The notes under the pieces are model-generated. The model saw only the letters and a program-made list of their open reading frames with translations, was not told the DNA's origin and ran no database searches. A stretch of 64,000 bases of DNA from an uncultured Gemmatimonadales bacterium (lineage in GTDB: Bacteria; Gemmatimonadota; Gemmatimonadetes; Gemmatimonadales; Gemmatimonadaceae), in assembly GCA_963793305.1 (NCBI GenBank), contig CAWBZV010000003.1:768001-832000 (forward strand). The letters run 5' to 3'. The translations under genes were made by a program, and so were the position numbers. Below are positions 29,956-44,886 of the stretch, in pieces (position 1 is the stretch's first letter; each line of letters begins with the position of its first letter).

Positions 29956-30419
29956 CGCGCGTCGAACGGGTTCTCATGGTCACCACCGCAGCCCTCGCCG
30001 CGCTCGCCGCGGTCGGTTGGTACTCGAACGCTCGCGCCGGAGCGCCAATGGGTGACTCGCTCGCGGGGGCCGCACGCGATGTCGGTGCGGCGCCTGCGGA
30101 ATCGATCGAAGCCGCCGCCGCGCGCGTGGCGGAGACAGACCCGTTTCGGATAGAACGGAAACCCGCCGCGATCGCGTACCGACCCGATCTCGAAGGGGTG
30201 GCGCCACCGCCCAAGCCGCCCAAGCCCCAGCTCGTACTCGAGGGGTTGGTCGGCGGCGCGGCGCTCATCGATGGCGCGCCGGGGCATCCCGCGACCGCCA
30301 TTGTGCACGTCGGCGATACGCTCGGCGGACTGCGCATTCGGCACATCGGCCGCGACACCGTCATCGTGTCGGGCTCGGACACGACCTGGCGACTGACCTT
30401 GAGGCACGCATGGCAATGA
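29952..30419 (+). CDS. GspC/PilP-like protein
   Basis: TM, DPFR, Pro-rich stretch, LVLEGLVG...ALIDG...VGDTLGG..IRHIGRDTV. Confidence 0.6.
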   Translation: MTRVERVLMVTTAALAALAAVGWYSNARAGAPMGDSLAGAARDVGAAPAESIEAAAARVAETDPFRIERKPAAIAYRPDLEGVAPPPKPPKPQLVLEGLVGGAALIDGAPGHPATAIVHVGDTLGGLRIRHIGRDTVIVSGSDTTWRLTLRHAWQ

Positions 30420-31891
30420 TCCGGCACGGACTCGCTGTTCTCGCGATCGCCTCGAGCCTGAGCGCACAGCGAGCCCCGTCGCCGGTGAGCGACGTCGGCG
30501 ACAGCGTCACGATCCACCTCGTGGATGTCGATCTCCGCGTCGCGGTCTCGGCACTCGCGCCATATCTGGACCGGCCGGTCGTCTTCGGCAACGTGCCCGC
30601 GTTACGGGTGACGCTCGAGACGCCGCATCCCGTTCCTCGATCGGATATCGAGCGCCTCTTACGGGGCGTCGTCGAATCCCAAAATATGGAGGTCGTCGTC
30701 GACTCCGCGGCCGGCCTCTATCGAGTCAAGCCGCATGACCCTCTGCCACCGCCGGTCGCGACCTCGCGTGGCACGGGAGCGCATGGCGATGGGCAGGAGC
30801 TCTACGTCATTCATTTGAGCCACGCCCGCGCGGCCAATGTCGCCGCGACGGTCAATGCGCTCTATGGCCACGCGAGCGCGCTCGGCGAGCCGGGCGCGAC
30901 GCGAGAGGGCACGCTCTCGGGTCAGCTGGCGCAGAGCGCGTTTCAACCGGCGCTCGCGCCGCCGCCGACGTCGCCCGGCCCCGGAAGTCTGGCCGGCGGC
31001 AAATCGGCGGCGCTCTCCGGCGAGACCGCGATCATCCCTGATGCCGGGACGAACAGCCTGCTGATCCGCGCCAACCCGGCGGACTACGAGCTCATTGCCG
31101 CGGCGGTCAAGGAGCTCGACATCCGGCCGCTCCAAGTGCTGATCGAGGTGCTGATCGTCGAGATCAGCAAGAACTCGAACTGGACCGCCGGGCTCGGGGT
31201 CACCTTCCCGAATCAACAAGCGAAGGGGACGAGCACATCGATCGGCGGCTCCACGCCGAGCGCGGGGCTCGGCGACTTCGCGTTCAACGTGATGCGGACG
31301 GGGAGTCCGGCGTTCAGCGCGAGCCTCACCGCGGCGGCCGCGAAGGGCGAAGCGCGCATTCTCTCGCGACCCATCGTGTTGGCCGAGAACAACGAGGAGG
31401 CCGAGATCCTGGTCGGGAGCCAGCAGCCGTTCATTCAGGTGCAGCAGACGCAGGTCGGCGCGGTCGCGCAGAATCAGGTCGTGCAGTACCAGGACGTGGG
31501 CACGAAGCTCACGGTGCGTCCCACGATTTCGGCCGATGGGTTTGTGCAACTGCTCCTCACGCAAGAAGTGAATCAGGCGACGACGCAAGTGCAATTCAAC
31601 GCGCCGGTGATTTCGACCCGCACGTTGCGCACGCGGCTCCTCGTGCGGGATAGTCAGACGGTGGTGCTTGGTGGCCTGTCCAGTCGGGAGCGGGACAAGA
31701 ACTCGAGCGGCGTGCCCATCTTGTCGTCGATTCCACTCATCGGCCTCCTGTTCGGGCAACAAGGTCGCACCAACACGGGCACCGAGTTCTTTCTCTTTCT
31801 CACGCCGCACATCGTGCGCGACGATATCGACGCGGCCCGGGTGACGCAGCCGATCGATTCCCTGATGCGGCGGGAGGCGCCCGCGCCATGA
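30410..31891 (+). CDS. gspD: T2SS secretin GspD
   Basis: Signal peptide, TNSLLIR, LDIRPLQVLIEVLIVE, NNEEAEILVG, DVGTKLTVRP, GVPILSSIPLIGLLF. Confidence 0.93.
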   Translation: MAMIRHGLAVLAIASSLSAQRAPSPVSDVGDSVTIHLVDVDLRVAVSALAPYLDRPVVFGNVPALRVTLETPHPVPRSDIERLLRGVVESQNMEVVVDSAAGLYRVKPHDPLPPPVATSRGTGAHGDGQELYVIHLSHARAANVAATVNALYGHASALGEPGATREGTLSGQLAQSAFQPALAPPPTSPGPGSLAGGKSAALSGETAIIPDAGTNSLLIRANPADYELIAAAVKELDIRPLQVLIEVLIVEISKNSNWTAGLGVTFPNQQAKGTSTSIGGSTPSAGLGDFAFNVMRTGSPAFSASLTAAAAKGEARILSRPIVLAENNEEAEILVGSQQPFIQVQQTQVGAVAQNQVVQYQDVGTKLTVRPTISADGFVQLLLTQEVNQATTQVQFNAPVISTRTLRTRLLVRDSQTVVLGGLSSRERDKNSSGVPILSSIPLIGLLFGQQGRTNTGTEFFLFLTPHIVRDDIDAARVTQPIDSLMRREAPAP

Positions 31892-32925
31892 TCGAACGCG
31901 GCGGTGCATTTGACATCGGCCAGCATCTCATCGGTGACTCGCGCGCAATGCAGGAATTGCGCGCGGTCGTGGCGCGTCTGGCGCCGACGAAGTTGGCGGT
32001 CCTGATTCACGGCCCGACCGGGGCCGGGAAAGAGCTCGTCGCGCAGGCGCTCCACGTGCTGAGCCACCGCACGGGCCGGTTCGTTCCCGTCAATGTCGCG
32101 GCCGTTCCCGATGCGATGTTCGAGGATGAGTTCTTTGGCCACGTGCGGGGGGCATTCACGGGAGCCATCCGGGACCGTTTCGGCCTGTTGGCCGAGGCGC
32201 ATCACGGCACGTTGTTTCTCGACGAGGTGGGTTCGTTCAGCGCGACGGCGCAGCCCAAATTGCTCCGCGTGCTGGAGACGCAACTGTTCCGACCGATCGG
32301 CGCGCGGGCCGATCAGCGCAGCGAGTTTCGGACACTGGCCGCGACGAACGAGGAGCTCGAGGATCTCATCGGCGCCCACCGGTTCCGCCGCGATCTCCGC
32401 CGCCGGCTCGCGGAGTGCGTCGTGTACGTCCCACCGCTCGTGGACCGCCGCGAAGATATCGGGCCGCTGGCGCAGCACTTCGCGCAACGCGTCGCGGGGA
32501 CGCGCGCCATCGTGATCACACCGGATGCCCGGCGGGTGCTTCAAACCTACGATTGGCCGGACAACGTGCGGGAGTTGCGGCAGACGATCGAGTGCGCGTT
32601 GGCGCTCGGCGACGGGATGCGCGTCGATGCGAACGGTCTGTGCGCCGCACTCGGCACCCGCGCCACCGCGCGGCCGACTGCGAGCGGCGGCGAGATCGCG
32701 CTCGACCGCCAGCGTCTCGTGCAAGTGCTCGAAGAGTGCGACTGGAACACGGCGACCGCCGCGGAGCGCATCGGCGTGAATCGTTCGACGATCTACCGTC
32801 GGATGTGGCGATTCGGCGTGACGCAGCCAGACAGCAATGATTTGCGCGATTTGCGCCGAACCGACGCAAATCCGCATGCCTCGGACGCAAATGGCGCGAA
32901 TGCGGCCGATCGTGTCACACGGTGA
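31888..32925 (+). CDS. Sigma54-dependent activator (AAA+ + Fis HTH), no N-terminal regulatory domain
   Basis: GPTGAGKE, FFGHVRGAFTGA, LFLDEV, WPDNVREL, AAERIGVNRSTIYRRM. Confidence 0.93.
   Translation: MIERGGAFDIGQHLIGDSRAMQELRAVVARLAPTKLAVLIHGPTGAGKELVAQALHVLSHRTGRFVPVNVAAVPDAMFEDEFFGHVRGAFTGAIRDRFGLLAEAHHGTLFLDEVGSFSATAQPKLLRVLETQLFRPIGARADQRSEFRTLAATNEELEDLIGAHRFRRDLRRRLAECVVYVPPLVDRREDIGPLAQHFAQRVAGTRAIVITPDARRVLQTYDWPDNVRELRQTIECALALGDGMRVDANGLCAALGTRATARPTASGGEIALDRQRLVQVLEECDWNTATAAERIGVNRSTIYRRMWRFGVTQPDSNDLRDLRRTDANPHASDANGANAADRVTR
32839..32901. promoter_or_regulatory. Candidate upstream activator sequences
   Basis: gatttgcg at 32839 and 32848; inverted cgcaaatc at 32865 and cgcaaat at 32886; perfect 8-bp inverted repeat with 9-nt spacer. 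Confidence 0.55.
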
Positions 32926-32964
32926 AGATCCAATGCCACAGGGGGTTAGCGAGATACCGCTGTG

Positions 32965-32980
32965 CGGTCCGTCGCGTGCT
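32965..32980 (+). promoter_or_regulatory. Predicted sigma54 -24/-12 promoter of the Rhs gene
   Basis: cGGtccgtcgcgtGCt: GG 32966-67, N10, GC 32978-79; GGAGG 33007-11 then GTG 33019; -24 box only partly matches consensus. Confidence 0.55.
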
Positions 32981-33018
32981 TAAGAACGCCTCCGACTCTC
33001 GCGCCCGGAGGCGTGTTC

Positions 33019-36000
33019 GTGCTCACGAATTGTTGGCGGTTCGTTCTTGTTGTTGTCTGCGCGTTGCTCGTCGCACTCGCTGGTGGGGTTCAGACGGCGT
33101 CCGCTCAGGTCGTCCCGCACCCACCGCGTCCATTCATCTGCATGCCCGGCCAACCCGGGTGTCACACGTATCCCCCCTCGGCGAGCATCAGCCCGACCAC
33201 TGAGACGGTCTCGTCGCGGACGCTGGCGGTGACGGTGACGCTGTGTGACAGCGTCAGCCTCGGAGCCGATTCGGTCGTCTTCAACGGCACCAACAACACG
33301 AGCGCCTTCACGGTCACGAACGTGACCGGATCGGGCCAATGCGCCGTGGAGAAGAAGCTGACCGCGACGCTTCCGCCACTGAACCTCGGGGCGAACACGC
33401 TCGTCGCGTACGTCTACAATGACTTCAGTGGCAACCTGACGAGCTCCATCGCATCCGTCACGTATACATACAACCCACCGCCGAGCGTCAGCGTGACGCC
33501 GAAGGGCAGCTCGCTCTCGCTCCCGACCTCGGCCTCCGACTCCGTCACGTTCACCGTGACGAGTCTCGAGTCGGGATCCGACAGCGCCGCCTTCACGTGC
33601 TCGGCGCCCGGCATCACCACGAGCTGCACGGTGGTGGCCGGGAAGCGATTGGCGGGCGGCGCCAACGCGCCGATCGCCGTACACCTCAATCAGCCGGCGG
33701 CCGCGACGGGCACGGTCACCTTGACCGCGACGATGACGGGGACCCTGGGCTCCGACAATGGGACCATCAACCTCACGCTCATCGATCGCACCCAAGTCCT
33801 GCGGATCGTCGCCGGCGGAGGGATACAGCAGGTGTTGCCGAGTGCCGCCATCGTCGCGCCATTCACGGTGACGAACTACGGCAACCTGCAGGACACCGTC
33901 AACCTCAGTACCACGTGCCCGGGGTCGGCGTTGAGTGGCAGTTGCACGCCGTCGGTCACCTCCTTCACGCTGACTCCGGGGGCATCGCGTGCCGTCACGG
34001 TGAGCGTCGCGGCCGGCACCACGGTCGGTGCGACCGGAACGGTGGGGTTGGTCGGCGCACTCGCCAGTGGTGGCGTGCGCGACAGCGCGTACACCGACAT
34101 CACCATTCGCGCCGCCCGCTCACACGGCGTCGAGCTCGGCGCGGTGAACGACTTCTCGCAGCAGACGCCCGCCCTCTGCTACGCGCGGGCGATCGTGCCG
34201 CGCGCGGCGTACGAGTGTGGCAACCTCCGCATCGCCCATGCCCTGCCGGCCGTCCGGACCTACAACAAGGTCCGGGTGCCGACGCTGCTGTACAGTAGTC
34301 AGCTCGCGCACCCGCATCCCGTGATCAATGCGATCATCACCCTCGACGCGAGCCAGGGCACGCCCGACAGCGTCCTCGGGCAGCTGATGGATGGGAGTGG
34401 CAATACCCTCGGCCATGGCAAGTGGGCCGGCGCCTCATTCGCCAACGGCGCGTCGCGCGCGGTGAGCATCGGTTACAACGCGAGTGGCGTGACGACGAAC
34501 GAGTACAGCTGGAAGGTGCAAGCGCAGGCGTTCTATCCCGATACGATGCTCCCCTACGTCACGAACGAGTTCTATGCGCTCGTCAGCGCGCAGGCCTCGC
34601 ATCTCGGACACGGCTGGACCGTGGCCGGCGTCGAGTCCATGCACGTCTACTCGTGCGGGTGCTCGATGTTGTGGAATTCGGCGGATGGCAGTGCCGAGTT
34701 TTACTCGAACCAGAGCACGGGTTCGTCGTCGACGTTCGCGCCAACGTCGGGATTGCTGACGCGGCCCGACACGATGAAGACCGATCACTCGACCGGGGTG
34801 CTGCACTACATTCGCTACGCGCCGCACGGCGTGCAGGTGATCTTCGATTCCACGGGGCATCATCTCCAAACGCGCGACCGCCTCGGGCACGTGACCACCT
34901 TCACGTACGTCAATGGGACGGACGTCGCCACCATCACGGTGCCGGCGCCGGGCGCGACGCTAACCTATCAGTTCGTGTACGACGGCACGACGCACATGTT
35001 GGACTCGGTCATCGCGCCGTCCGTCGGGGGGGAGCCGACCCGCGCCACCAAGCTCACGATCAACAGCGCGGGCGATGTGACGGCGATCCGGGACCCGGAT
35101 GGGATGTCGGTCACGTTCAACTATCGCACGGGTGGCGACTCCGACGTCATCACGTCGCTCACGGATCGCCGTGGCACGTATACGGCCTTCACCTACGATG
35201 CCGCGCGGGAGCTGGCGACCGCAACGGTCGACTCGACGAGCGGTGGATTCAATCTGACGACGAGCTTCGCCGGCGCGAACGCCTCGACGCTCACCGCTGC
35301 GCTCAACCAGGATTCGGTCTCGATGCTCGTGAACGGGCCGCGGACCGATGTCAGCGATACGGCGCGGATCTGGACGAATCGCTTTGGCCAGCCGGTCCGG
35401 CTCCGCGATGCGCTCGGCTACGAGACCGACCTGACGATGGGCAATACGACGTACTTGGCGGAGGTGACCCGACTCCGCCACCCCAACGGCCAGGTGCTTG
35501 GCGCGGTCCCCGATCCACGTGGCAACCTACAGAGCGAGACCGACTCGAGCCTCGTCAGCGGTGGTCAGTACGCCACGACGGCCTATACGTACGATGGCAA
35601 GTTCGACTTCGTCACGAGCATCACACCCCCATTGCTCGACGCGACGACGTTCACGTACGACACGGTGAATGGAAATCGACTCACGGCGCGGAATGCGCTC
35701 GGCGACTCGACCACCATCAACTACTTCTACGGCAACAGCGACTCGTTGCTCTCATCATCCCAGCCTCCCCACACGGCCAAGGACTCGATCCAGTACGATG
35801 GCGTCTTCGGCAACGTCGTGGGCGAGATGACGCCGCTCGGGTATTGGACGCTGACCCTCCTCGACGGGTATGGTCGGGATTCGTTGGCCATCACGCCCCT
35901 TCCGGCAGCCGACAAATCGCACGACCCGACGGGCGCGGGCGCCGTACGCGATACGACGGAGACGTTGTACGACCCGCTCGATCGTCCCTACTTCACGCTG

Positions 36001-38574
36001 ACGATCGCGCCGACGTACAACGGCGTGGTGCGCCAGACATCGAGCGTGCTCACCGACTACGACGGGGAAGGCGCCGTTCTCTCGACGCAGATCCAGCCAT
36101 CGCCGGACCCCAACAACATTGAACTGATCACCACGTTCCACTTTTATGACCGCGTCGGGCGGCTGAGCTACACGCAACATCCAGACAATTCGAAGGACAG
36201 CACGTACTACGACGCCGCTGGGAACGTGGATACCATCTATACCCGGCGCGGATACAAGATCCCTCAGGCGTTCGATGCATTGAATCGCATCGTGAAGCGC
36301 ATCGTGCCCTCGGTGTTCTACCCCAAGGACTCGATCGGCATTCCGGCGTTGACGGAGCAGAAGAGCTTCTACCTCACACAGAACCCGCCGTACGGCAATC
36401 TCACGATTCCGGGCGACAGCGCGGCGTTTCGCTATGACGAAGTCAGCAATACCGTCGAGGCGGACAATGCCGATGCGCGGATCAGCCGTGTCTACGACGC
36501 CGCGGGCCGGTTGCTCACCGAGACACAGCGCGTCCGCACGCGTGATGGTCAGAACTTCAATACGCACATCTACACGGTGGGGTACGGCTACGATCGCGAC
36601 AGCCGACGCACACTGGTCGTGCATCCAAGCCAGCTGGCGGCGATCGTCAGCGGCCAGTCCCGCGATACGTCCATCTACGGGTACGACCTGGCATCGCACG
36701 TGAGTACTGTGCGGGACATTCTCGGCGGAACGTTCACCTATGGGTACTCGGCCCGTGGCGATCTCATATCGTTGGCATTCCCCGATGGCGCGACCGAGGA
36801 GCGATTCGGGACCGATGACGACGGGCGCTTGACGAACGATTCGATCGGCCCCCTCAGCGGGGCGGCGAATTCGCGGAAGACGGCGCTGACCTACGATGCG
36901 CGCGGCAAGATCCTGACGGGGGTCAACACCTTCGGCATCCAGGACAACGTATCGGCAACGTATTCCGCCATGGGACACGTCGTCGTGCACAATGCTTCAT
37001 TCATCTTTCCGGCGTACGACGGCAGTCCGCAGCAGAACGGCACGGATGACGAGACGTACACACTGGATCCCCTGGGGAATCAAGTCAGCTCGACCTCGAG
37101 CACCAATATCGCCGTCGGGACCATCTCTGATCCGACGACCAGCCTCGCGTTGGCGGGCTACAACAACCGCATTGGGGAGCAGACGGTGCGTCAGGGAGGG
37201 AGCGCCGGTGTCCATGGCTCAGCCGACGCGCTGTTATACGACGCGGAAGGCAACCTGTACGGGACCTATCAGACATCAATCGTGCAGGGCGACCCCGCGG
37301 TAGATCTCTTCTCGTACTATGGCGCGGACAATCGGCTCCGCATGGCGGACAATCGAACGGTCGCCAATGCGTTCGTCCAGACGCTGACGATTTCGAGCCG
37401 CGCGCTCGAGACCTATCGCTACGACGCGCTCGGCCGCCGGGTGTTCAAGCAAGCCGACGACTGGTGTCCGACCAACACGACGGTCTGGAACTACTGCCAT
37501 CGCGCCACGCTGCGCCGCTTTGTGTGGGACGGCGCGCAAGAGTTGGACGAAATTCAGACGCAGGATACCGCCGTCGTATCGATTGCCGAAGCCGACACCG
37601 GCGTCGTCAAGCTCGGCATCCAATGCAATGGCGTGTGCTCCGACAACAACAAATTCTTCGGTCGAGTGCTGTACACGACCGGATTGACGGTCGACCAGCC
37701 GTTGGCGGTGACGCGTGTGGACTATGCCGACTCGGCGACCGTCGTCAATGGCTTAGCCGGCACGCCGGTGCCGTACTATGTCCACCCGCCACTCACGTTC
37801 GTGCCGGTGTGGAACGCCTACGGCCGGTGGGACGCTGTTCTCGATTACGAGTGCGTGACGATGCCGGGCAGCACGCAGCCGCGCTGCGTCGACTCGCAGG
37901 TCGAACTCGGACTCAATCCATACGACAACCTGCACGTCAACGTCCTCAGTTATATGGGATCGATGTTGGAGGACAAGCGCGATGAGACTGGGACACGATA
38001 CCGGCGGGCTCGCACGTACAATCCGACCACCGGGCTGTTCACACAGGAAGATCCCCTCGGCCTCGCCGGCGGGCTCAACGCCTACGGCTTCGCGGAAAGC
38101 GACCCGGTTAATTATTCCGATCCTTTCGGGTTGTGTCCCTTCGGTCAGGTGGTGTGCAACCTCTTCAATAGTTACGCGAACTGGCGTGACGATCAGGAAA
38201 GTGAGTACAAGGAATTTCACGGCGGCGACCAGGTGGTCGCGCTCGAGGTCCCCGGCATATTTGCCGCTGCCAGCCCCGAAGGCATCGCGGAAGGACTCGG
38301 GGAGATCGGAGAGCAATTCGAAAACATCTCAAACGAACTCAAGACCTCGAATCACTTTCAAGCGGCTCGGATGGAGCAGACGGGCCGCCTGGAGACAGGT
38401 GCCGATCACGCGCATGAGCTCAAGGACTTCGCCAACGGCCTGCGCAACTCCGCGGTCAAACTGAAACGTATCTTGAGTAATCCCAAGCTCGAGGCTGCGG
38501 TTCGTAAAGATGCACAGGAGCTCCTCAGCAACGTCAGCATACTGCGCGACCGTATCATGGAGGCACTGAAGTGA
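33019..38574 (+). CDS. Signal-peptide-bearing Rhs/YD-repeat polymorphic toxin with Ig-like N-terminal domains and Ntox28-like tip
   Basis: Sec signal ...VQTASA|Q; Thr/Ser beta-rich domains; YD repeats; YDALGRR; QEDPLGLAGGLNAYGFAESDPVNYSDPFGL; helical tip DHAHELKDFANGLRN...LSNP. Confidence 0.93.
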   Translation: MLTNCWRFVLVVVCALLVALAGGVQTASAQVVPHPPRPFICMPGQPGCHTYPPSASISPTTETVSSRTLAVTVTLCDSVSLGADSVVFNGTNNTSAFTVTNVTGSGQCAVEKKLTATLPPLNLGANTLVAYVYNDFSGNLTSSIASVTYTYNPPPSVSVTPKGSSLSLPTSASDSVTFTVTSLESGSDSAAFTCSAPGITTSCTVVAGKRLAGGANAPIAVHLNQPAAATGTVTLTATMTGTLGSDNGTINLTLIDRTQVLRIVAGGGIQQVLPSAAIVAPFTVTNYGNLQDTVNLSTTCPGSALSGSCTPSVTSFTLTPGASRAVTVSVAAGTTVGATGTVGLVGALASGGVRDSAYTDITIRAARSHGVELGAVNDFSQQTPALCYARAIVPRAAYECGNLRIAHALPAVRTYNKVRVPTLLYSSQLAHPHPVINAIITLDASQGTPDSVLGQLMDGSGNTLGHGKWAGASFANGASRAVSIGYNASGVTTNEYSWKVQAQAFYPDTMLPYVTNEFYALVSAQASHLGHGWTVAGVESMHVYSCGCSMLWNSADGSAEFYSNQSTGSSSTFAPTSGLLTRPDTMKTDHSTGVLHYIRYAPHGVQVIFDSTGHHLQTRDRLGHVTTFTYVNGTDVATITVPAPGATLTYQFVYDGTTHMLDSVIAPSVGGEPTRATKLTINSAGDVTAIRDPDGMSVTFNYRTGGDSDVITSLTDRRGTYTAFTYDAARELATATVDSTSGGFNLTTSFAGANASTLTAALNQDSVSMLVNGPRTDVSDTARIWTNRFGQPVRLRDALGYETDLTMGNTTYLAEVTRLRHPNGQVLGAVPDPRGNLQSETDSSLVSGGQYATTAYTYDGKFDFVTSITPPLLDATTFTYDTVNGNRLTARNALGDSTTINYFYGNSDSLLSSSQPPHTAKDSIQYDGVFGNVVGEMTPLGYWTLTLLDGYGRDSLAITPLPAADKSHDPTGAGAVRDTTETLYDPLDRPYFTLTIAPTYNGVVRQTSSVLTDYDGEGAVLSTQIQPSPDPNNIELITTFHFYDRVGRLSYTQHPDNSKDSTYYDAAGNVDTIYTRRGYKIPQAFDALNRIVKRIVPSVFYPKDSIGIPALTEQKSFYLTQNPPYGNLTIPGDSAAFRYDEVSNTVEADNADARISRVYDAAGRLLTETQRVRTRDGQNFNTHIYTVGYGYDRDSRRTLVVHPSQLAAIVSGQSRDTSIYGYDLASHVSTVRDILGGTFTYGYSARGDLISLAFPDGATEERFGTDDDGRLTNDSIGPLSGAANSRKTALTYDARGKILTGVNTFGIQDNVSATYSAMGHVVVHNASFIFPAYDGSPQQNGTDDETYTLDPLGNQVSSTSSTNIAVGTISDPTTSLALAGYNNRIGEQTVRQGGSAGVHGSADALLYDAEGNLYGTYQTSIVQGDPAVDLFSYYGADNRLRMADNRTVANAFVQTLTISSRALETYRYDALGRRVFKQADDWCPTNTTVWNYCHRATLRRFVWDGAQELDEIQTQDTAVVSIAEADTGVVKLGIQCNGVCSDNNKFFGRVLYTTGLTVDQPLAVTRVDYADSATVVNGLAGTPVPYYVHPPLTFVPVWNAYGRWDAVLDYECVTMPGSTQPRCVDSQVELGLNPYDNLHVNVLSYMGSMLEDKRDETGTRYRRARTYNPTTGLFTQEDPLGLAGGLNAYGFAESDPVNYSDPFGLCPFGQVVCNLFNSYANWRDDQESEYKEFHGGDQVVALEVPGIFAAASPEGIAEGLGEIGEQFENISNELKTSNHFQAARMEQTGRLETGADHAHELKDFANGLRNSAVKLKRILSNPKLEAAVRKDAQELLSNVSILRDRIMEALK

Positions 38575-39035
38575 ACATAGACCTGTCGCCGTGGAGGGCA
38601 CCGGCGGAGCTCGTCGACGCGATTTGGGCTGCGCGACGCGAGCAGCGGAGGGACCTGCAACCGGCGATCGTGCAACTGCTCGATCACGATAACCCGACCG
38701 TTCGTGAAGAGGCGGTGTCGTTGCTTTTTGTCAAGTGGGCGGATCGCTCGCTTCGTGACCGGCTCATCGGCCTGATGCGATCCGACCCTGATTTCGGGGT
38801 ACGGGCGCGGGCAGCCGGGGCCCTTGGACTGACATCGGACGACCGGAGCCGGCGCCGCGACTGTGAAGTACTCCGGCAGATCGTACTCGATAGGGAAGAC
38901 GACCCGGTCGTCCGTAAGGCGTGTTATGAGGCACTACAAGGAATGATCCACGGCAAGGCAATGCTACTCGACGACGATGTCGATCTCGATGAGGATGTGG
39001 ATTTGGAATGGGTGAAGGCAGCCTGCGGTGACTGA
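38571..39035 (+). CDS. HEAT-repeat immunity protein
   Basis: GTGA overlap with the toxin stop; DHDNPTVREEA, DPDFGVRARAA, DDPVVRKAC repeats. Confidence 0.85.
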   Translation: MNIDLSPWRAPAELVDAIWAARREQRRDLQPAIVQLLDHDNPTVREEAVSLLFVKWADRSLRDRLIGLMRSDPDFGVRARAAGALGLTSDDRSRRRDCEVLRQIVLDREDDPVVRKACYEALQGMIHGKAMLLDDDVDLDEDVDLEWVKAACGD

Positions 39036-39124: not shown

Positions 39125-39137
39125 GCATTCATGGTAA

Positions 39138-39233
39138 TCATTCCGTCACGAGAAAATTGAACTGGCCGAGCCCCTGCGCGCGCGCGAAGTCTGCGGTGCT
39201 GCCGAGGCGGCCCGGTCCGCGCGACGTGATGTA
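39138..39233 (-). repeat. Diverged duplicate of the 3' end of the FkbM gene (43972-44067)
   Basis: YITSRGPGRLGSTADFARAQGLGQFNFLVTE* vs YITSRGPVPLGSTSDFARAQELGQFNFLVTE*. Confidence 0.92.
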
Positions 39234-39562
39234 AGGAAATCGTTCCTGAAGGCATCCATCTCGTGAGCCTCGGTCGCCGTCACGGGCACATTGCGTGTCG
39301 AATCGACCGTCTCCGACGCGAGCAGTTGATCCAAACAGCCGCTCATCCTCGCGCGCTACGCGCGCCGTGCGCGCGATCGACGCCTCGACGTCCACCGGCT
39401 CGCTGGCGGCTTCGACGCTCAACCAGAGGCCGATCCTGGCCCACTCCGCCGCAATCGCGGCCACTGTGTCATTGACTCCGGCGTCGGGCGAATGCTTGGC
39501 AGCTGTCGTCCTCATCTCACTTTGCCTGCGTGCCAGGCCAGGCATCGAGCGCCGTCACCGCG

Positions 39563-40225
39563 GGCGCGCTCGAAGATAAGTTGGATGCTGCAGGTACGGT
39601 GAATCGCCGAGCGCGAACTTACGATCCTCTCACGGGGCGGCTTACGCAGGAGGATCCGGCCGGGTTAGCTGGAGGGCTGAATGAGTACGGTTTTGCAGCC
39701 GGTGATCCGGTCAACTACAGTGATCCGTTCGGCCTGTGTCCACCATGCGACGGCAATGGCGTGTCGCCCCAGCGCCACCATACACCGACCGCTGACGAAG
39801 AGGCATTGCAGGGCCCCGGACTGCTTGATCCTGTCGCAATCGGGACTGGGTTCTTGGCGGGTCCGGTGGATGCTGCGATCACTGGGGCGATAGAACGCGC
39901 TGGTGCGGATGCTGCAGCCACATCGGCTGCCAAAGCGGGCACCAAGGTGTATCGGGTTTTCGGCGGGGAGGCGAAGCCCATGGGTCGCTATTGGACTCCC
40001 GTAAATCCCGCAGAAGTAGCAGGCTTCCGGGCTGCGGCGGGGCTGCCAGTCGAGAACACGGGCCGATTCGTGATCGAAGGGGTGCTGCAGGATGCTACCG
40101 GAGTGCAGGTAGGGCGTGCGGCGGCCGGTGCAGGCGGTAGGGGTGGGATCCCTGAGTTCTTGGTTCCCGCGCCGGCGAAACAGATTCAAATTATAAACGT
40201 GTCTGGCGCGAACCCACCATTCTGA
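39563..40225 (+). pseudogene. Orphan Rhs core fragment + toxin tip 1 (ADP-ribosyltransferase-like, tentative)
   Basis: LEDK...RRARTYDPLTGRLTQEDPAGLAGGLNEYGFAAGDPVNYSDPFGLC mirrors 37957-38136; tip VYRVFGG...GRYWT..P...GLP..N...GGIPEF. Confidence 0.88.
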
Positions 40226-40232
40226 GGGGGGC

Positions 40233-40622
40233 ATGAGCGACAAGGGTCCAGATTTCTTCCTTGGCTCGAGCGACAGCCGCGGTGACTTTGCGCGCGCGCG
40301 TGCAGCATCGGCGCGCGCGCGCCTCGCCGGGCCGAACAACGTTCAGTATCTGTGGATTCGCGTTGAGCCGGCGATAATCGGACAGCCGTACGGCTTAGGC
40401 GGAGCGGATATTCACGACCTGATAATCGCTCCGCACTACGACGGCAGTACCTTGTTCCCGATCAAGGAGTTTCCCATGCCTGTTGTCGTTTACCGTGCAT
40501 TAAGCGATCGGGTGTTCGAGACACTTCGATTCGGTGAAGAAGACGTCTCTAACATCGCATGGGGAGAGCTGTACCGGACGCGCGACGCGGCGGTAGCCGC
40601 CTCGGGGGGCGAAACTCTCTGA
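40233..40622 (+). CDS. Putative cognate immunity protein of tip 1
   Basis: Starts 7 nt after the tip 1 stop with GAGG RBS; small alpha/beta protein. Confidence 0.72.
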   Translation: MSDKGPDFFLGSSDSRGDFARARAASARARLAGPNNVQYLWIRVEPAIIGQPYGLGGADIHDLIIAPHYDGSTLFPIKEFPMPVVVYRALSDRVFETLRFGEEDVSNIAWGELYRTRDAAVAASGGETL

Positions 40623-40677
40623 CGCCACGCTACCTGCAACAAGAGGACAGCGTCTATCCATTTTGCTACGAGTGCGT

Positions 40678-41019
40678 ATGAAAGACCGGTCTTCCAACGA
40701 GCGTCGTGAGCGGCGCGTCGAGTTTCTGGGCGAGCAAGATGGTCCACCGGAGCGCGAACTCAAAGCGCTTCTGCAGAAAGAACTTCGTCGATTCCCTACG
40801 GTGCGGCGAGCCTACCTTGCGCGCGTCGGGTTTGCACCGGATGCTGCAGTATCCGTGGCGTTGTGCATTGCTCCGAGCTCAAAGAATGATCAGGCCATAG
40901 TTCAGACAGTCAGTCGTGTGTTTGGAGCGTACTTCGCTTCTGAGGCTCATCTCGACATCGTCTTTCTTGATGCCGAACAGGAAGAAGATCTGAGACGCGT
41001 CTGTGGTTCGTTCCTCTAA
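40678..41019 (+). CDS. SseB C-terminal-like domain protein (probable orphan immunity)
   Basis: FLGEQDGPPERELK...VRRAYLARV...LDIVFL. Confidence 0.65.
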   Translation: MKDRSSNERRERRVEFLGEQDGPPERELKALLQKELRRFPTVRRAYLARVGFAPDAAVSVALCIAPSSKNDQAIVQTVSRVFGAYFASEAHLDIVFLDAEQEEDLRRVCGSFL

Positions 41020-41032
41020 AAACCGTGGGAAT

Positions 41033-41160
41033 CCGCTTCGCCCGCGGGTCGGGTGTTAATTCGGGCCTCGGTGGGCCGTCTGGATCGCCGGACCTCACAG
41101 TCGTCGCGCGGGTCGAGTGTAAATTCGGGCCTCATCGAGCCTTCCGGATCACTGGACCTC
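41033..41160. repeat. Two degenerate tandem units with 64-bp period
   Basis: cgcgggtcgggtgttaattcgggcctc (41043) vs cgcgggtcgagtgtaaattcgggcctc (41107); ggacctc at 41090 and 41154. Confidence 0.8.
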
Positions 41161-41169
41161 GCGCCTGTC

Positions 41170-41590
41170 ATCAGGGCCGCGCCGTGGACAGAGGGGTGGT
41201 CGTCCCACTGACTGAGGCTCGCAGCCTGGGTGTGTTTGCGGACCTCCCCCCGTACACCGCGTGTGACGACCGTGTGTCTCCTCGAGCGTCCACGGCGCAT
41301 TCCGGATCGCTAGGTCTCTCGTCTCACGCGGAATAGCTCGTGATCAGTTGTCAAACAGCGCCGAAGAGCTGCGTGCGTAGTGGGACCTCCACGCGACGAT
41401 CAAAACCTCGGTGCTCGGCGGGTCACGCCGGCACGACACATCTTCATAGACGCTTCGGATCCGAGGGAGACCTAGACGGTTGTATGACGACGGTCACCTG
41501 CGCGAACAGCCAGGGCCGCAAGGAACTTGAAGGTCGAAGCATCTCCCTCCACGCTCGGCTCACCACCCGTACCTTCGTCTTCTCCTCCGT
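41170..41590 (-). ncRNA. Candidate structured RNA downstream of the IS110 recombinase
   Basis: Inverted repeats 41179-41189/41288-41298 (11/11), 41310-41320/41465-41475, 41449-41457/41535-41543; no credible ORF. Confidence 0.45.
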
Positions 41591-42858
41591 TCATGCCGCT
41601 CGATACGGCGACTCACGCTGGAGCACCTGCCACCGCCCGGCGTCGAACGGTTCTGCGGTCTGCATGATATGCAACAACATCGGGACGAGCTTCCGGGCGA
41701 TCGCACACACGGCGCTCACCTTGGATCCGCCGTTTCGCGCGACCAGCGCGACGTACTGCTCATGACACAATCCACCCGTCCGGCAGCATCGGCCCGCGAG
41801 CAGGAAGAGCTGGCGTCGGAGCGCCGGCCGCCCGCGCTTCGTCTGTCGGATCCGACTGCGGACGGACGTTCCGCTTTCCTTCCCCGCCAGGTTCATGCCG
41901 GCGAGCTTCAGCACCTGGCGCGGCGAGACGTAGCTCGCCGGCGTGCCGAGTTCGGCGACGAGGGTCGAGGCGCAGACGACGCTCACACCCGGCACCGTGG
42001 TTAAGGCGGCGACGGCCGTGATCTCCTGGGCGAGCTCCGTCAACTGAGCCTCGACCGCCCCGATGTGAAGCCGGACGATCGTCCACCGGGCGAGGAGACG
42101 CCGGATCTCCTGACGGCGGGCACCGCGATCGTCGACCACTCCGATCGTCAATGCCGCGGCCGTCAGGAACGCGTTGATCCGGTCTGGCGCGAAATGGTTG
42201 TGCGAGACCTTGCGGATGAGCGCTCGTACACGCATCGGTCGCTCGGCATCGAGCTCCGCCGGCGTCGACCAGTGCCGGAGCAGCGCGATCGGCGTGCAGT
42301 ACTTCACGTCGGTGAACGTGGCGGTGAACTCCGGCCAGACGACGTCGAGGACGCTCAAGAGTCGGTTCTTGAGTCGCGTCTCCTCGACGGCGAGCCGCTG
42401 GCGCTCGGTCGTCAGGGCCCGAAGGGCGATCGCGCGCGGCTCAAGAAGGGCGTAGCTGACGAACAGACCGTCGCTCACGAGCCGACAGATCAGGCTAGCG
42501 TCTTTCGCATCGTCCTTCCGTGGGCTGTTGTCTTCCATCTCCTTGAGCCGCTTCGTCAGAGCCGAGAGCACCGTGACCACGCGTAGCCGCGCCGGTGCAG
42601 ATCGGCGGCGAAGGTCTGCCCATGGTGGCCCGCGAACTCGATGCCCACGAGCATCCGTTCGCGGGGCACGTTGGGGAACAGTGCGGTGAGATGTGCGTCA
42701 GCAGCATCGAACCCGCCGCGACTCACCGGCACTGTAATGGCCTTGGTGCGACGGCTGTCCGGCCCGCGTGCAACGAGCATGTGAAAAGTCTTGCCGGTGT
42801 CGACACCCACATGGACGCAAAAGGTACGGGCGTACGCGAGCTTGTCGTCGGCGTGCAT
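41591..42858 (-). CDS. IS110 DEDD recombinase/transposase, one frameshift near 42580
   Basis: VGVDTGK, GIEFAG, KDDAKDA; PGVS...LVAELG, KESG, TKRGRPALR, AIARKL. Confidence 0.92.
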
Positions 42859-42869
42859 GGCGCGGGCGA

Positions 42870-43055
42870 GTAGAGTGTGGTAGCGTCAGCCGGGGGAGGC
42901 CAGACTCTCTCACCCGTGAGAATGTTGCCGCTACACTAATGCACGCTGCATACCACACCTCGCGATCACCAGCGCTCGATCAATGATCGACGGCAAAACA
43001 AAACCCAATGTCGGTGTGCAGCGCTCTATAGTGGCTGCACACTAACATCGGGAGA
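42870..43055 (-). ncRNA. Candidate bridge-RNA-like structure upstream of the IS110 recombinase
   Basis: About 19-bp hairpin 43004-43052 with G-U pairs, then stem gtgtggta/taccacac enclosing a large internal loop and an inner tctca/tgaga hairpin. Confidence 0.5.
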
Positions 43056-43062
43056 TAGATGT

Positions 43063-43599
43063 GTAAATTACTCGGACCCATTCGGTCTGAGCCCATGCCC
43101 TCCAGACAACGACTGCGGCATCAGCGCGAGCGACGCACTCGCGGCTCTCACGGGCGCGGGTCGGCTCCTTCAGCCCGCGCAAGGACCTCTCGAAGTGGCT
43201 GGTACGATTGCGGTCGCACCGCTGGCCGGGGGAGTGGGGGCAGCCGAGGAGATCAGCGGTGCCGTGATTGCGCTCGGACAGACGCTGAGGTCCGGAGCCG
43301 GTAGCGGGGTTCTGACAGCGGCGGGAGTAGCGGGACGAGTGGCGTCTGCGACCGGCGGCGCCGTTTCCCAGCTAGCCAAGTCGGAAGGTTTCAAAGTCAC
43401 GGTGGACGCCGGGCGAGCTATTGTCGCTAGAATTAAGTCTACTGGCGACATCCGTGTGGGTATCGACGGCATCGGCTCACTGACACGCGAGGGCGTAGTG
43501 TCCGCGAATCGAGCGCTCACCCATCTGAAGAACCTGTCGAGCCAAGAGATAATTGGTCTCATCAACAAGGCTCGTGAATTGCTCGCAGCGCCACGCTAA
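43063..43599 (+). pseudogene. Orphan Rhs toxin tip 2, truncated at the VNYSDPFGL junction
   Basis: gta aat tac tcg gac cca ttc ggt ctg in frame with ORF 43195-43599; tip ...IRVGIDGIGSLTREGVVSANRALTHL (possible RNase fold). Confidence 0.82.
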
Positions 43600-43623: not shown

Positions 43624-43959
43624 ATGGATCGCGCCGTCCTGCCGCAGGCACTCAATGGTGGTTACATCGAGGAGTACGAGTTCGACCTGCGTCGGAATCT
43701 ATTCTCCATGCGAGTCCATGTTCTCGACAACGATCTGCTGTCCAGCTATAACGTGCGGTTCGAGAAGTTGAGTCAGTTCGCGATGGATAGTGAGAGCCTG
43801 GGTGACAAAGAGCGACTCGAACTGACCGAGATCTGGATCGACTCGACTCCGGAGTCGTCCAGTACCGAGGAGTGGAGTATTACGATAAGCATGTGGGACA
43901 TTACTCACATTCGCCTGCGGTGCGCCATCATCGTGATCGATGGCGCACCGCTGCGCTGA
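43624..43959 (+). CDS. Putative cognate immunity protein of tip 2
   Basis: Acidic beta-rich 111-aa ORF 24 nt after tip 2; lower GC. Confidence 0.68.
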   Translation: MDRAVLPQALNGGYIEEYEFDLRRNLFSMRVHVLDNDLLSSYNVRFEKLSQFAMDSESLGDKERLELTEIWIDSTPESSSTEEWSITISMWDITHIRLRCAIIVIDGAPLR

Positions 43960-43971
43960 CGACGAGAGACA

Positions 43972-44886
43972 TCACTCTGTCACCAAGAAATTGAACTGCC
44001 CGAGCTCCTGCGCGCGCGCGAAGTCGGAGGTGCTCCCGAGGGGGACCGGCCCGCGCGACGTGATGTAGGAGACGTTGAGGCCGAGGCTGAGGACGCGGTC
44101 GATGATGTGGCCCTCGTTGATCGCCCGCCCGAGAAACTCCATGATCAGCGTCGGCCGCCCACGCGGGCGACGCAGCGTGCGCTCGAATCCATCGAGCAAT
44201 CGCATCTCGTGCCCTTCGACGTCGATCTTGAGCAACGCCGTCTCCGGCGCGATGCCCTCGCGCTCGAACACCTCGTCGAGCGAGACGACCGGCACGTCGA
44301 ATCGCTCGCGCAGGTCGCCCAATGCGGTGCGCCCCGACTCTAGCGTGCTTTCCTGATCGTTCTCGCGAACGTAGAACGTCATCGTGCCCGGCTCGGCGCT
44401 GACGCCCGCGTGGCGCACCTCGACGCGCGGGCTCCAGCCGTTGCGCTCGACGTTCCGTTCGATGAGAGACGCGAGATGGGGCGTTGGCTCGTACGCGATG
44501 ACGCGCGCATGAGGTGCGTGGCTCGCGGCGAGATAGGTGAACACGCCGACGTTGGCGCCAATGTCGAAGATGGTCGTCGCCTCGCGCGCGAGCGATGTGA
44601 AGAGACGAATGGTCGACCAGTCGGCATACTGCTGGAGCGGCTGGACGAGCAGGCTGCGGCAACTCGGCAGCGACAGGTCCAACTCTAATGTGACCACGGA
44701 CGCCCCGAGGTCGATCGACGCGACCGTCGTGCGGTGTGCCGAGCGACAGACGAGCTCTTCGACCGCGCGAGACGCGGAGTTGCCGCCGAGGATGCGGCGT
44801 TGCCCCAAGCGGGCCACCAGCGCGATCAACGGCGGACCGAGTACGGTCGACCCAGTGCGGCGCAACGTGCGCGCGACGACCGACAT
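43972..44886 (-). CDS. FkbM family methyltransferase
   Basis: FDIGANVG, AYEP, SLDE, LKIDVEGHE, IMEF. Confidence 0.92.
   Translation of the reverse strand: MSVVARTLRRTGSTVLGPPLIALVARLGQRRILGGNSASRAVEELVCRSAHRTTVASIDLGASVVTLELDLSLPSCRSLLVQPLQQYADWSTIRLFTSLAREATTIFDIGANVGVFTYLAASHAPHARVIAYEPTPHLASLIERNVERNGWSPRVEVRHAGVSAEPGTMTFYVRENDQESTLESGRTALGDLRERFDVPVVSLDEVFEREGIAPETALLKIDVEGHEMRLLDGFERTLRRPRGRPTLIMEFLGRAINEGHIIDRVLSLGLNVSYITSRGPVPLGSTSDFARAQELGQFNFLVTE

What the first reader, a model, noticed from the sequence alone, without database searches (positions are those of the whole stretch)
41020..43090. IS110 recombinase sitting at the conserved Rhs core/tip junction
Seen: orphan tip 2 begins abruptly at VNYSDPFGL (43063), touching the element's upstream non-coding end. 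The usual preceding core (..YGFA.GDP) is missing. GTGTAAATT occurs at this junction and again at 41117. Known: IS110 enzymes are RNA-guided, site-specific recombinases. Inferred: this element may target the conserved Rhs junction and could move or shuffle toxin tips. Caveat: removing the element between the two 9-mers does not restore an Rhs core on the left, so the history is more complex than a clean insertion.
Basis: partly seen in the sequence, partly recalled or inferred. Interest (0 to 1): 0.75.

Follow-up and report, generated by a model that had tools for sequence, protein, structure and literature searches.

The report
RNA-guided jumping gene swaps toxin tips
A small mobile element of soil bacteria carries the business end of an antibacterial toxin gene plus its antidote, and uses RNA guides to splice that end exactly into a resident toxin gene, pushing the old end aside; this gives a concrete mechanism for how such toxins change their warheads.

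Summary
The 9-mer at 41117 is a guide inside the bridge RNA (handshake + core + right target), not an end. The RNA downstream of the IS110 gene has one donor loop and three target loops. The target loops spell synonymous forms of the Rhs G-D-P|V-N/S codons. The donor loop's right guide matches the start of Rhs tip 1 at 39710, so tip 1 and its two following genes are cargo. Insertion fuses the cargo tip in frame to the resident core and strands the old tip (tip 2). Among homologues, 55 of 76 distinct left junctions abut an Rhs tip. The right donor guide matched the cargo-tip junction in 52 of 52 testable cases. One cargo sits at three different integron attC-type sites of one genome, and another at an Rhs core and at a non-Rhs site. 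Other IS110s of the phylum lack the link (1 of 29, spurious). This copy's recombinase is frameshifted. Activity, RNA expression and circles were not shown. I found no report of this system in ten literature searches.

The parts
39712..43064 (-). Whole mobile element (3.35 kb): left end, IS110 gene, multi-loop bridge RNA, then inverted cargo (Rhs tip 1 + two genes)
   Evidence: Ends defined by guide matches and by homologue junctions
39530..39709 (+). Rhs core remnant (about 60 codons from GTG, 78 open codons) ending in G-D-P; left target at 39703-39709
   Evidence: TIGR03696 55.3 bits, cut-off 32.5; open frame; left guide of loop D equals 39702-39710
39710..39716 (+). Right junction: core GT (first two bases of the Val codon) + right donor CAACT
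   Evidence: Pairs with donor right guide at 41397-41405 over 7 positions incl. one G-U (sequence); covariation 52 of 52
39710..40225 (+). Cargo: Rhs tip 1 (171 aa), putative antibacterial toxin domain, activity not identified
   Evidence: ORF; no Pfam/NCBIfam/PDB hit; 40% homologue is the tip of a plain Rhs module in G010
40233..40622 (+). Cargo: 129-aa ORF, possible immunity gene
   Evidence: Position only; no family hit
40663..41019 (+). Cargo: SseB_C-like protein, probable partner of tip 1
   Evidence: PF14581 21.8 bits, just under cut-off 22.5; a 49% homologue directly follows the tip-1 homologue in G010
41043..41099 (-). Target-binding loop E: left guide 41080-41088 (G-D-P with CCA), right guide + handshake 41053-41061 (V-N with GTT)
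   Evidence: in the model's training set, so the score is by construction
41107..41163 (-).
   Evidence: handshake geometry from PMC11208158
41264..41321 (-). Target-binding loop F: left guide 41302-41310, right guide 41274-41282 (G-D-P|V-S variant)
41344..41390 (-). Conserved hairpin and TTTGACAA motif between donor loop and target loops; role unexplained
   Evidence: Invariant columns in 7 homologues; present across both subclades
41390..41460 (-). Donor-binding loop: left guide 41436-41443 (= 43057-43064), right guide + handshake 41397-41405
41591..42858 (-). IS110 recombinase gene (422 aa in intact homologues), frameshifted near 42581-42582 in this copy
   Evidence: intact homologue passes NF033542 (155.7 bits, cut-off 140)
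42859..43062 (-). Left non-coding end, strongly folded; left donor at 43056-43062
   Evidence: z -3.97; conserved in L045-L047 up to the junction
43063..43069 (+). Left junction: core GT + right target AAATT
43063..43599 (+). Displaced tip 2 (178 codons, no core, no start)
43624..43959 (+). Probable immunity gene of tip 2 (weak YxiG-like hit)
   Evidence: PF24711 17.7 bits, under cut-off
32962..39035 (+). Context: full-length Rhs gene (1870 aa) and HEAT-repeat partner; not hit by the element

Best explanation
It is an IS110-family bridge-recombinase element whose far end is the start of an Rhs toxin tip. The mobile unit is left end + recombinase + RNA (one donor loop, two or more target loops) + an inverted cassette of toxin tip and immunity gene. 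The donor loop joins the left end to the third base of the Val codon in the tip's V-N-Y-S-D-P-F-G motif. A target loop finds the G-D-P|V codons of a resident Rhs gene, and strand exchange after the second base of that Val codon fuses the cargo tip in frame to the resident core and leaves the old tip, without core, behind the element's left end. The new junction is again a target, so related elements stack into arrays. Several target loops cover synonymous codon variants, and some members carry extra loops for integron attC-type sites. Shown by sequence comparison: ends, guides, covariation, co-movement of cargo, frame. Inferred: RNA expression, catalysis, circle or direct transfer, toxin and immunity activity. 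The copy in this window is probably non-autonomous (frameshift) and landed in a short core remnant, so its tip is probably silent.
For: Loop D matches both flanks of this site. 55 of 76 distinct left junctions abut an Rhs tip, in 37 of 45 clusters; 39 of 53 clusters have the motif within about 1.5 kb against 1 of 29 control IS110 loci, that one spurious. 67 distinct cargo junctions at median 1463 nt behind the gene. Right donor guide matches own cargo junction 52 of 52, nine sequence classes, 5.9% by chance, permutation p 0.0005 over 33 clusters. Left donor guide 37 of 38. Right target guide exact 21 of 63, within one mismatch 45 of 63, against 4.9% and 25% for other clusters with the same core, p 0.002; core base and guide agree 58 of 60. 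Same cargo (99.3-99.7%) at three sites with different flanks in G191, near integron integrases. L074/L076: 98.8% over 1672 nt, ending at the junction, Rhs core versus non-Rhs flank; L095/L098: 100% over 1935 nt, a filled and an empty form. 10 of 31 core junctions have 500 or more open codons upstream. Loop stems covary (31 two-sided changes, 0 of 500 shuffles). Carriers form one clade, SH-aLRT 98, quick tree.
Against: No circle or empty site for this copy. No RNA data. The left target guide test was weak (21 of 30 within one mismatch against 45% for other clusters, 22% shuffled). 18 of 63 left junctions have no guide within one mismatch. 9 copies with 2.1 kb or more downstream showed no tip junction by my pattern, and 28 of 125 had no left end called. 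Only 6 of 60 cargo tips pass a Pfam cut-off; 42 of 67 have an ORF right behind. 13 of 105 full-span genes are split. Most Rhs junctions of the hosts carry no element (10 core matches and one element in G000; 42 matches in G122). Relatedness inflates all tests; loci were chosen by likeness to the query.
Confidence: 0.87

Rival explanations
1. A compact IS110 (gene + RNA only) inserts at Rhs junctions, and tips come to lie behind it by homologous recombination between Rhs modules; the cargo is not part of the element.
For: Homologous recombination between cores is the published model (PMC2935791). Near-identical recombinases carry different tips, and likeness ends 0-60 nt behind the last loop at no fixed point. 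The tip 1 + SseB_C pair also occurs without an element.
Against: It predicts a core fragment or right donor next to the RNA; none is seen. The donor guide tracks the distant tip junction 52 of 52. Tips with no core base sit at attC-type and other non-Rhs sites, with identity ending exactly at the junction.
Confidence: 0.06
2. Same mechanism, but purely selfish: the tip only restores the 3' end of the gene that the element cuts, as integrating phages restore their target gene (recalled), and the immunity gene makes loss costly. Tip exchange is a by-product. This differs from the best explanation in why, not in how.
For: Many copies sit in silent places (core remnants, other elements' ends, attC-type sites; 36 of 67 cargo junctions are not at an Rhs core). 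The recombinase travels with the cargo. Only 11 of 401 genomes of the phylum have a match.
Against: Cargo tips are very diverse while the junction is conserved across two subclades about 37% identical, which fits selection on new warheads, though also on escape from immunity.
Confidence: 0.5
3. The element moves by one-sided strand transfer from its junctions, with no free circle; the extra target loops act as separate short RNAs.
For: Target-loop-only RNA and direct top-strand transfer were shown for CazIS110-1 (10.1101/2025.10.25.684509). The first core base differs between donor and target in many members (C versus G) and each junction keeps its own left base, which fits top-strand-only joining.
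Against: Spread between hosts is easier with a circle; no data here separate the two routes.
Confidence: 0.3

Closest known systems
IS621 / IS110 bridge recombinases (PMC11208160, PMC11208158; passages read)
   Same: DEDD + Tnp domains, two-loop guide logic, 7+2+5 target with two handshake bases, cut after the second core base, no target duplication.
   Different: One target loop there, two or more here with different guides; RNA downstream of the gene; right end is protein-coding toxin sequence 1.2-2 kb away; insertion makes a new in-frame gene and regenerates a target.
IS1111 group incl. attC-targeting ISKpn4 and ISPst6 (PMC11187229; passages read)
   Same: Non-coding region downstream of the gene; guide order as in IS1111; some members here insert at attC-type sites.
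   Different: Protein 422 aa rather than about 340; only a short imperfect sub-terminal repeat; attC is a second target beside Rhs; toxin cargo.
Expanded cargo-bearing IS110 loci (10.64898/2026.08.14.744561; first part and passages read)
   Same: Genes carried inside IS110 ends; repeated insertion at occupied loci; tandem non-coding repeat units next to the gene are mentioned.
   Different: Cargo there is plasmid-derived, with resistance genes, and picked up by half-matches; 'Rhs' and 'toxin' do not occur in its main text. Here the cargo class is fixed and is itself the donor end; that paper says insertion does not regenerate a target, here it does.
Rhs C-terminal displacement (PMC2935791; passages read) and orphan CdiA-CT modules (PMC7662968; passages read)
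   Same: New tip in, old tip shunted to a silent downstream place; a mobile pool of tips was predicted.
   Different: Proposed there: homologous recombination through core fragments of variable length, no enzyme named. Here: base-exact crossover, no core fragment on the displaced tip, a dedicated RNA-guided enzyme.
Tn7 / CAST two-pathway targeting (recalled; also named) and TIGR arrays (search listing only)
   Same: More than one target class per element; tandem guide units.
   Different: Single protein; guides are whole bridge-RNA loops; no spacer acquisition machinery seen.

Membership tests
IS110 family bridge recombinase | DEDD RuvC-like (PF01548) + Tnp20 (PF02371) domains | tested here: met
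   intact homologue P0003 passes NF033542; best PDB hits IS621 and ISCro4
IS110 family bridge recombinase | Catalytic D, E, D, D and Ser | tested here: met
   D20, E74, D117, D120, S329 invariant in 44 homologues; roles by analogy with IS621 D11/E60/D102/D105/S241
IS110 family bridge recombinase | Non-coding RNA with target and donor loops whose guides covary with the DNA sites | tested here: met
   left target guide only weakly
IS110 family bridge recombinase | Handshake bases pair with the other partner's positions 6-7 | tested here: met
   The right target guide extends over the donor's GT in the window and in the 12 distinct exact 9-mer matches
IS110 family bridge recombinase | RNA is expressed and bound by the protein | not testable with these tools
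   No RNA holder listed
IS110 family bridge recombinase | Circular intermediate / empty site | tested here: inconclusive
   No joint in contigs of 4 runs; no empty site in 60 relatives; a filled/empty pair exists for homologues L095/L098
IS110 family bridge recombinase | Intact recombinase in this copy (autonomous element) | tested here: not met
   Frameshift near 42581-42582; only copy found in the 92% complete genome
IS1111 group | Long non-coding region downstream of the gene, top-strand complement first | tested here: met
   Sequence against PMC11187229
IS1111 group | Sub-terminal inverted repeats of 7-17 bp | tested here: inconclusive
   Imperfect repeat, 44-84% complementary at seven of nine positions; own versus cross p 0.02, one of four offsets tried
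IS1111 group | Transposase of about 340 aa related over its length to IS1111 | tested here: not met
   422 aa; no tree with ISfinder references was built. Not filed as IS1111
Orphan Rhs module made by homologous displacement | Displaced tip keeps a core fragment of variable length | tested here: not met
   Tip 2 and 55 homologous displaced tips start at the Val codon with no core; the remnant at 39530 does fit this older route
Rhs toxin-immunity pair | Tip is toxic and neutralised by the next gene | not testable with these tools
   6 of 60 cargo tips pass Pfam cut-offs (NlpC/P60, Tlde1, lysozyme, M23, DUF4329, DUF4951); window tips unassigned

The most novel reading that the evidence does not exclude
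These elements are an old, dedicated RNA-guided toxin diversification system: a transferable warhead cassette with an expandable array of guides that tracks host codon variants of the Rhs junction, uses integron sites as a second landing place and source of new cargo, and builds stacked toxin-immunity libraries that the host draws on in bacterial competition.
Probability: 0.4. Interest if true: 0.93.

Novelty: new variant of a known kind. Interest (0 to 1): 0.88.

Why it matters
How polymorphic toxins change their tips has been left to chance homologous recombination; the 2009 model predicted a mobile pool of tips and asked how its circles arise. This clade supplies an enzyme, a guide and a base-exact crossover, so the question becomes testable with one protein and one RNA. 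For IS110 biology it shows natural multi-guide bridge RNAs with several target classes, an element end made of coding sequence, and insertion that creates an in-frame fusion and a fresh target. It also warns that IS110 boundary callers that look within about 1 kb of the gene will miss such elements.

Tried and rejected
41117 as target duplication or right end: rejected, it lies inside a repeated hairpin and changes with the junction in homologues. My first reading of the donor right guide (41410 region, note) was wrong: that stretch is stem. TTGACA motif as a promoter: no sigma-70 site found. Rfam: nothing near a gathering score. Folding the whole 3' region gave z -0.12, so global folding gives no support; support comes from covariation. 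No RNA holder listed. Contigs of 4 of 11 listed runs showed no circle or empty-site joint; contigs drop rare forms. Empty site or tip 2 not found in 60 relatives. No relative in viral contigs; plasmid hits only about 32%, flanks not read. Tip 1 activity: PDB, NCBIfam, Atlas (unnamed clusters 0.91; TNT 0.89, a lead only), two low-confidence models (pLDDT 51 and 32) and one fold search gave nothing. A likeness of tip 1 to an ADP-ribosyltransferase tip was recalled and not confirmed. Fixed cargo-swap point behind the RNA: not found. attC hairpins could be drawn for 6 of 10 rebuilt sites only. The careful tree did not finish; the quick one is cited. Earlier scan notes held nothing on this system.

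Full report
1. Observation. Tip 2 starts at 43063 with no core. The 9-mer lies at 43061 and 41117 and five times in the whole genome. The minus-strand gene is an IS110 recombinase, the only copy found in this 92% complete genome. It carries a one-base gap near 42581-42582 against three intact homologues; contigs of two runs of one study show the same sequence. This copy is probably dead in cis.

2. What the second 9-mer is. It lies in one of three similar hairpin units downstream of the gene (the model was trained on them). Each unit has an outer stem, a left guide, an inner stem and a right guide. In 23 such units the stems covary (85% paired, 31 two-sided changes, 0 of 500 shuffles; slid controls 25-41%; structure drawn by me from these sequences). 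In IS621 the right guide pairs with positions 8-14 and two handshake bases pair with the donor's positions 6-7 after exchange (PMC11208158, passages). That is GT + GT + AAATT, the 9-mer at 43061-43069. The left guide of the same loop (41144-41152) equals 39702-39710, the G-D-P codons of the core remnant. Loops E and F spell other codon choices of the same motif.

3. The real ends. The donor loop's left guide (41436-41443) equals 43057-43064. Its right guide (41397-41405) pairs with 39708-39714, the junction between the core remnant and tip 1. So the element runs from 39712 to 43064 and holds tip 1, a 129-aa ORF and an SseB_C-like gene in the opposite orientation. Both junctions fall in the same position of a Val codon, so the insertion is clean and in frame.

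4. Homologues. I collected loci from genomes and metagenomes (the best 80 of 125 confirmed stretches, 77 loci). They hold 125 copies at 33% identity or more, duplicates included, in 98 clusters at 95% and 65 at 85%; two more distant copies were dropped. A left end was called for 97 of 125; after dropping two bad calls and duplicates, 76 distinct junctions remain: 53 Rhs tips, 2 frameshifted Rhs tips, 6 attC-core sites, 4 CTAAC repeats, 11 other. Downstream, 67 distinct tip junctions lie 0.6-2.0 kb from the gene: 31 on an Rhs core, 17 on another element's left end, 19 on other DNA; one spurious call was dropped and 9 copies with enough sequence showed none. Control: 1 of 29 other IS110 loci of the phylum had the motif, spuriously, against 39 of 53 clusters in a like-sized window (control loci were often short). 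Named hosts are Gemmatimonadales or Gemmatimonadaceae; metagenome contigs have no taxonomy. Carriers form one clade with two deep branches (quick tree, 76 rows).

5. Guide covariation. Right donor guide against own cargo junction: 52 of 52 testable (of 67), nine classes, 5.9% chance rate, p 0.0005 with one copy per cluster. Left donor guide: 37 of 38 (located by pattern). Right target guide: 63 of 76 testable, 21 exact, 45 within one mismatch, against 4.9% and 25% across clusters with the same core; p 0.002. The first core base follows the guide in 58 of 60. Left target guide: weak, 21 of 30 against 45%, as expected for a nearly constant target. Kinship inflates these figures, but exact matches span 12 different 9-mers.

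6. Cargo moves with the element. In G191 one cargo (99.3-99.7%) sits at three sites with different flanks on both sides, 4 kb to about 40 kb from integron integrases, and the array holds a loop for that site. L074 and L076 share 98.8% over 1672 nt up to the junction, one on an Rhs core, one not. L095 and L098 are identical over 1935 nt; in L098 the tip is on its core, in L095 an element of the other branch has inserted at that junction. In 10 of 31 core junctions 500 or more open codons precede the cargo tip, so full toxins are re-armed; in the window only 78 do. Near-identical recombinases also carry different tips, with no fixed swap point: how cargo is first captured is open.

7. Cargo identity. 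I scanned 60 of 65 tips (141-197 aa); 6 pass a Pfam cut-off, four of them cell-wall enzymes. Tips 1 and 2 remain unassigned. That they are antibacterial toxins follows from their place behind the Rhs core motif and from knowledge of the family, not from a test.

8. Limits. No RNA, circle or activity data. Most Rhs junctions of these hosts have no element, so this is one route of tip exchange beside homologous recombination; the remnant at 39530 and the duplicated methyltransferase end at 39137 fit the older route. Whether hosts benefit or the element is simply selfish is not settled.

9. Literature. Ten searches found no paper linking IS110 or bridge RNA to Rhs tips; the direct search gave 0. 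Seen: passages of PMC11208160, PMC11208158, PMC11187229, PMC2935791, PMC3482391, PMC7662968, PMC13604230, 10.1101/2025.05.14.653916 and 10.64898/2026.10.21.760802; first part and passages of 10.1101/2025.10.25.684509 and 10.64898/2026.08.14.744561; abstract of PMC13626964. No supplements were read; bioRxiv supplements are closed, and their tables of IS110 targets or repeat units could hold members of this clade. Subscription journals and ISfinder were not searched. An earlier scan note on a transposase beside displaced gene ends (e1-1014403) is a loose analogy, unchecked.

10. Verdict. A member of the IS110 family by domains, residues and guides; not filed as IS1111. It works as an RNA-guided toxin-tip exchange cassette. 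New variant of a known kind; interest 0.88.

Noticed in passing
window 39137-39233 and 43971-44067: An 87% copy of the 3' end of the FkbM methyltransferase gene lies behind the main Rhs pair; it suggests the main tip and HEAT gene arrived by a separate displacement.
   Followed up: partly
window 39334-39573: 87% alike to G000:C5:1483487-1483729, 1.5 kb behind another Rhs junction; a gene fragment of unknown kind.
   Followed up: no
window 41043-41099, run X4: A contig of a related strain has a changed guide base at 41057 (Val codon variant) and a joint that points to one more loop unit (single contig, depth 3.9).
   Followed up: partly
window 41190-41245: A fourth unit starting like the target loops but with no Rhs match and no model hit; decayed loop or guide for an unknown target.
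   Followed up: partly
L029, L030, L031 (G191), L033 (G122), L116, L118: Insertions three bases before a GTTAG core, beside integron integrases in G191 and G122, with a matching guide loop in G191.
   Followed up: yes
L065, L076, L084, L101; loop at L106:7751-7806: A second non-Rhs target at the end of a roughly 21-base tandem repeat followed by CTAAC; L106 has a loop whose guides fit it. In L076 the right flank forms an attC-like hairpin.
   Followed up: partly
L027, L040 (G269), L046, L051, L060, L088, L096-L098, L106: Stacked arrays in which elements of the two branches (about 37% identical) insert at each other's tip junctions.
   Followed up: yes
L001:1-2990: The recombinase is cut by other insertion sequences (they look like IS3 and IS21 types; recalled, not scanned), while RNA and cargo are intact.
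   Followed up: no
L046:5750-5870: About 48 bases of the left end are duplicated in tandem.
   Followed up: no
window 30410-32925: A secretin-like ORF and a sigma-54-type regulator ORF lie just upstream of the Rhs gene (labels recalled from the translations, not scanned); may bear on how the toxin is exported or controlled.
   Followed up: no
G122: 42 Rhs core matches in one genome, a very large arsenal.
   Followed up: no
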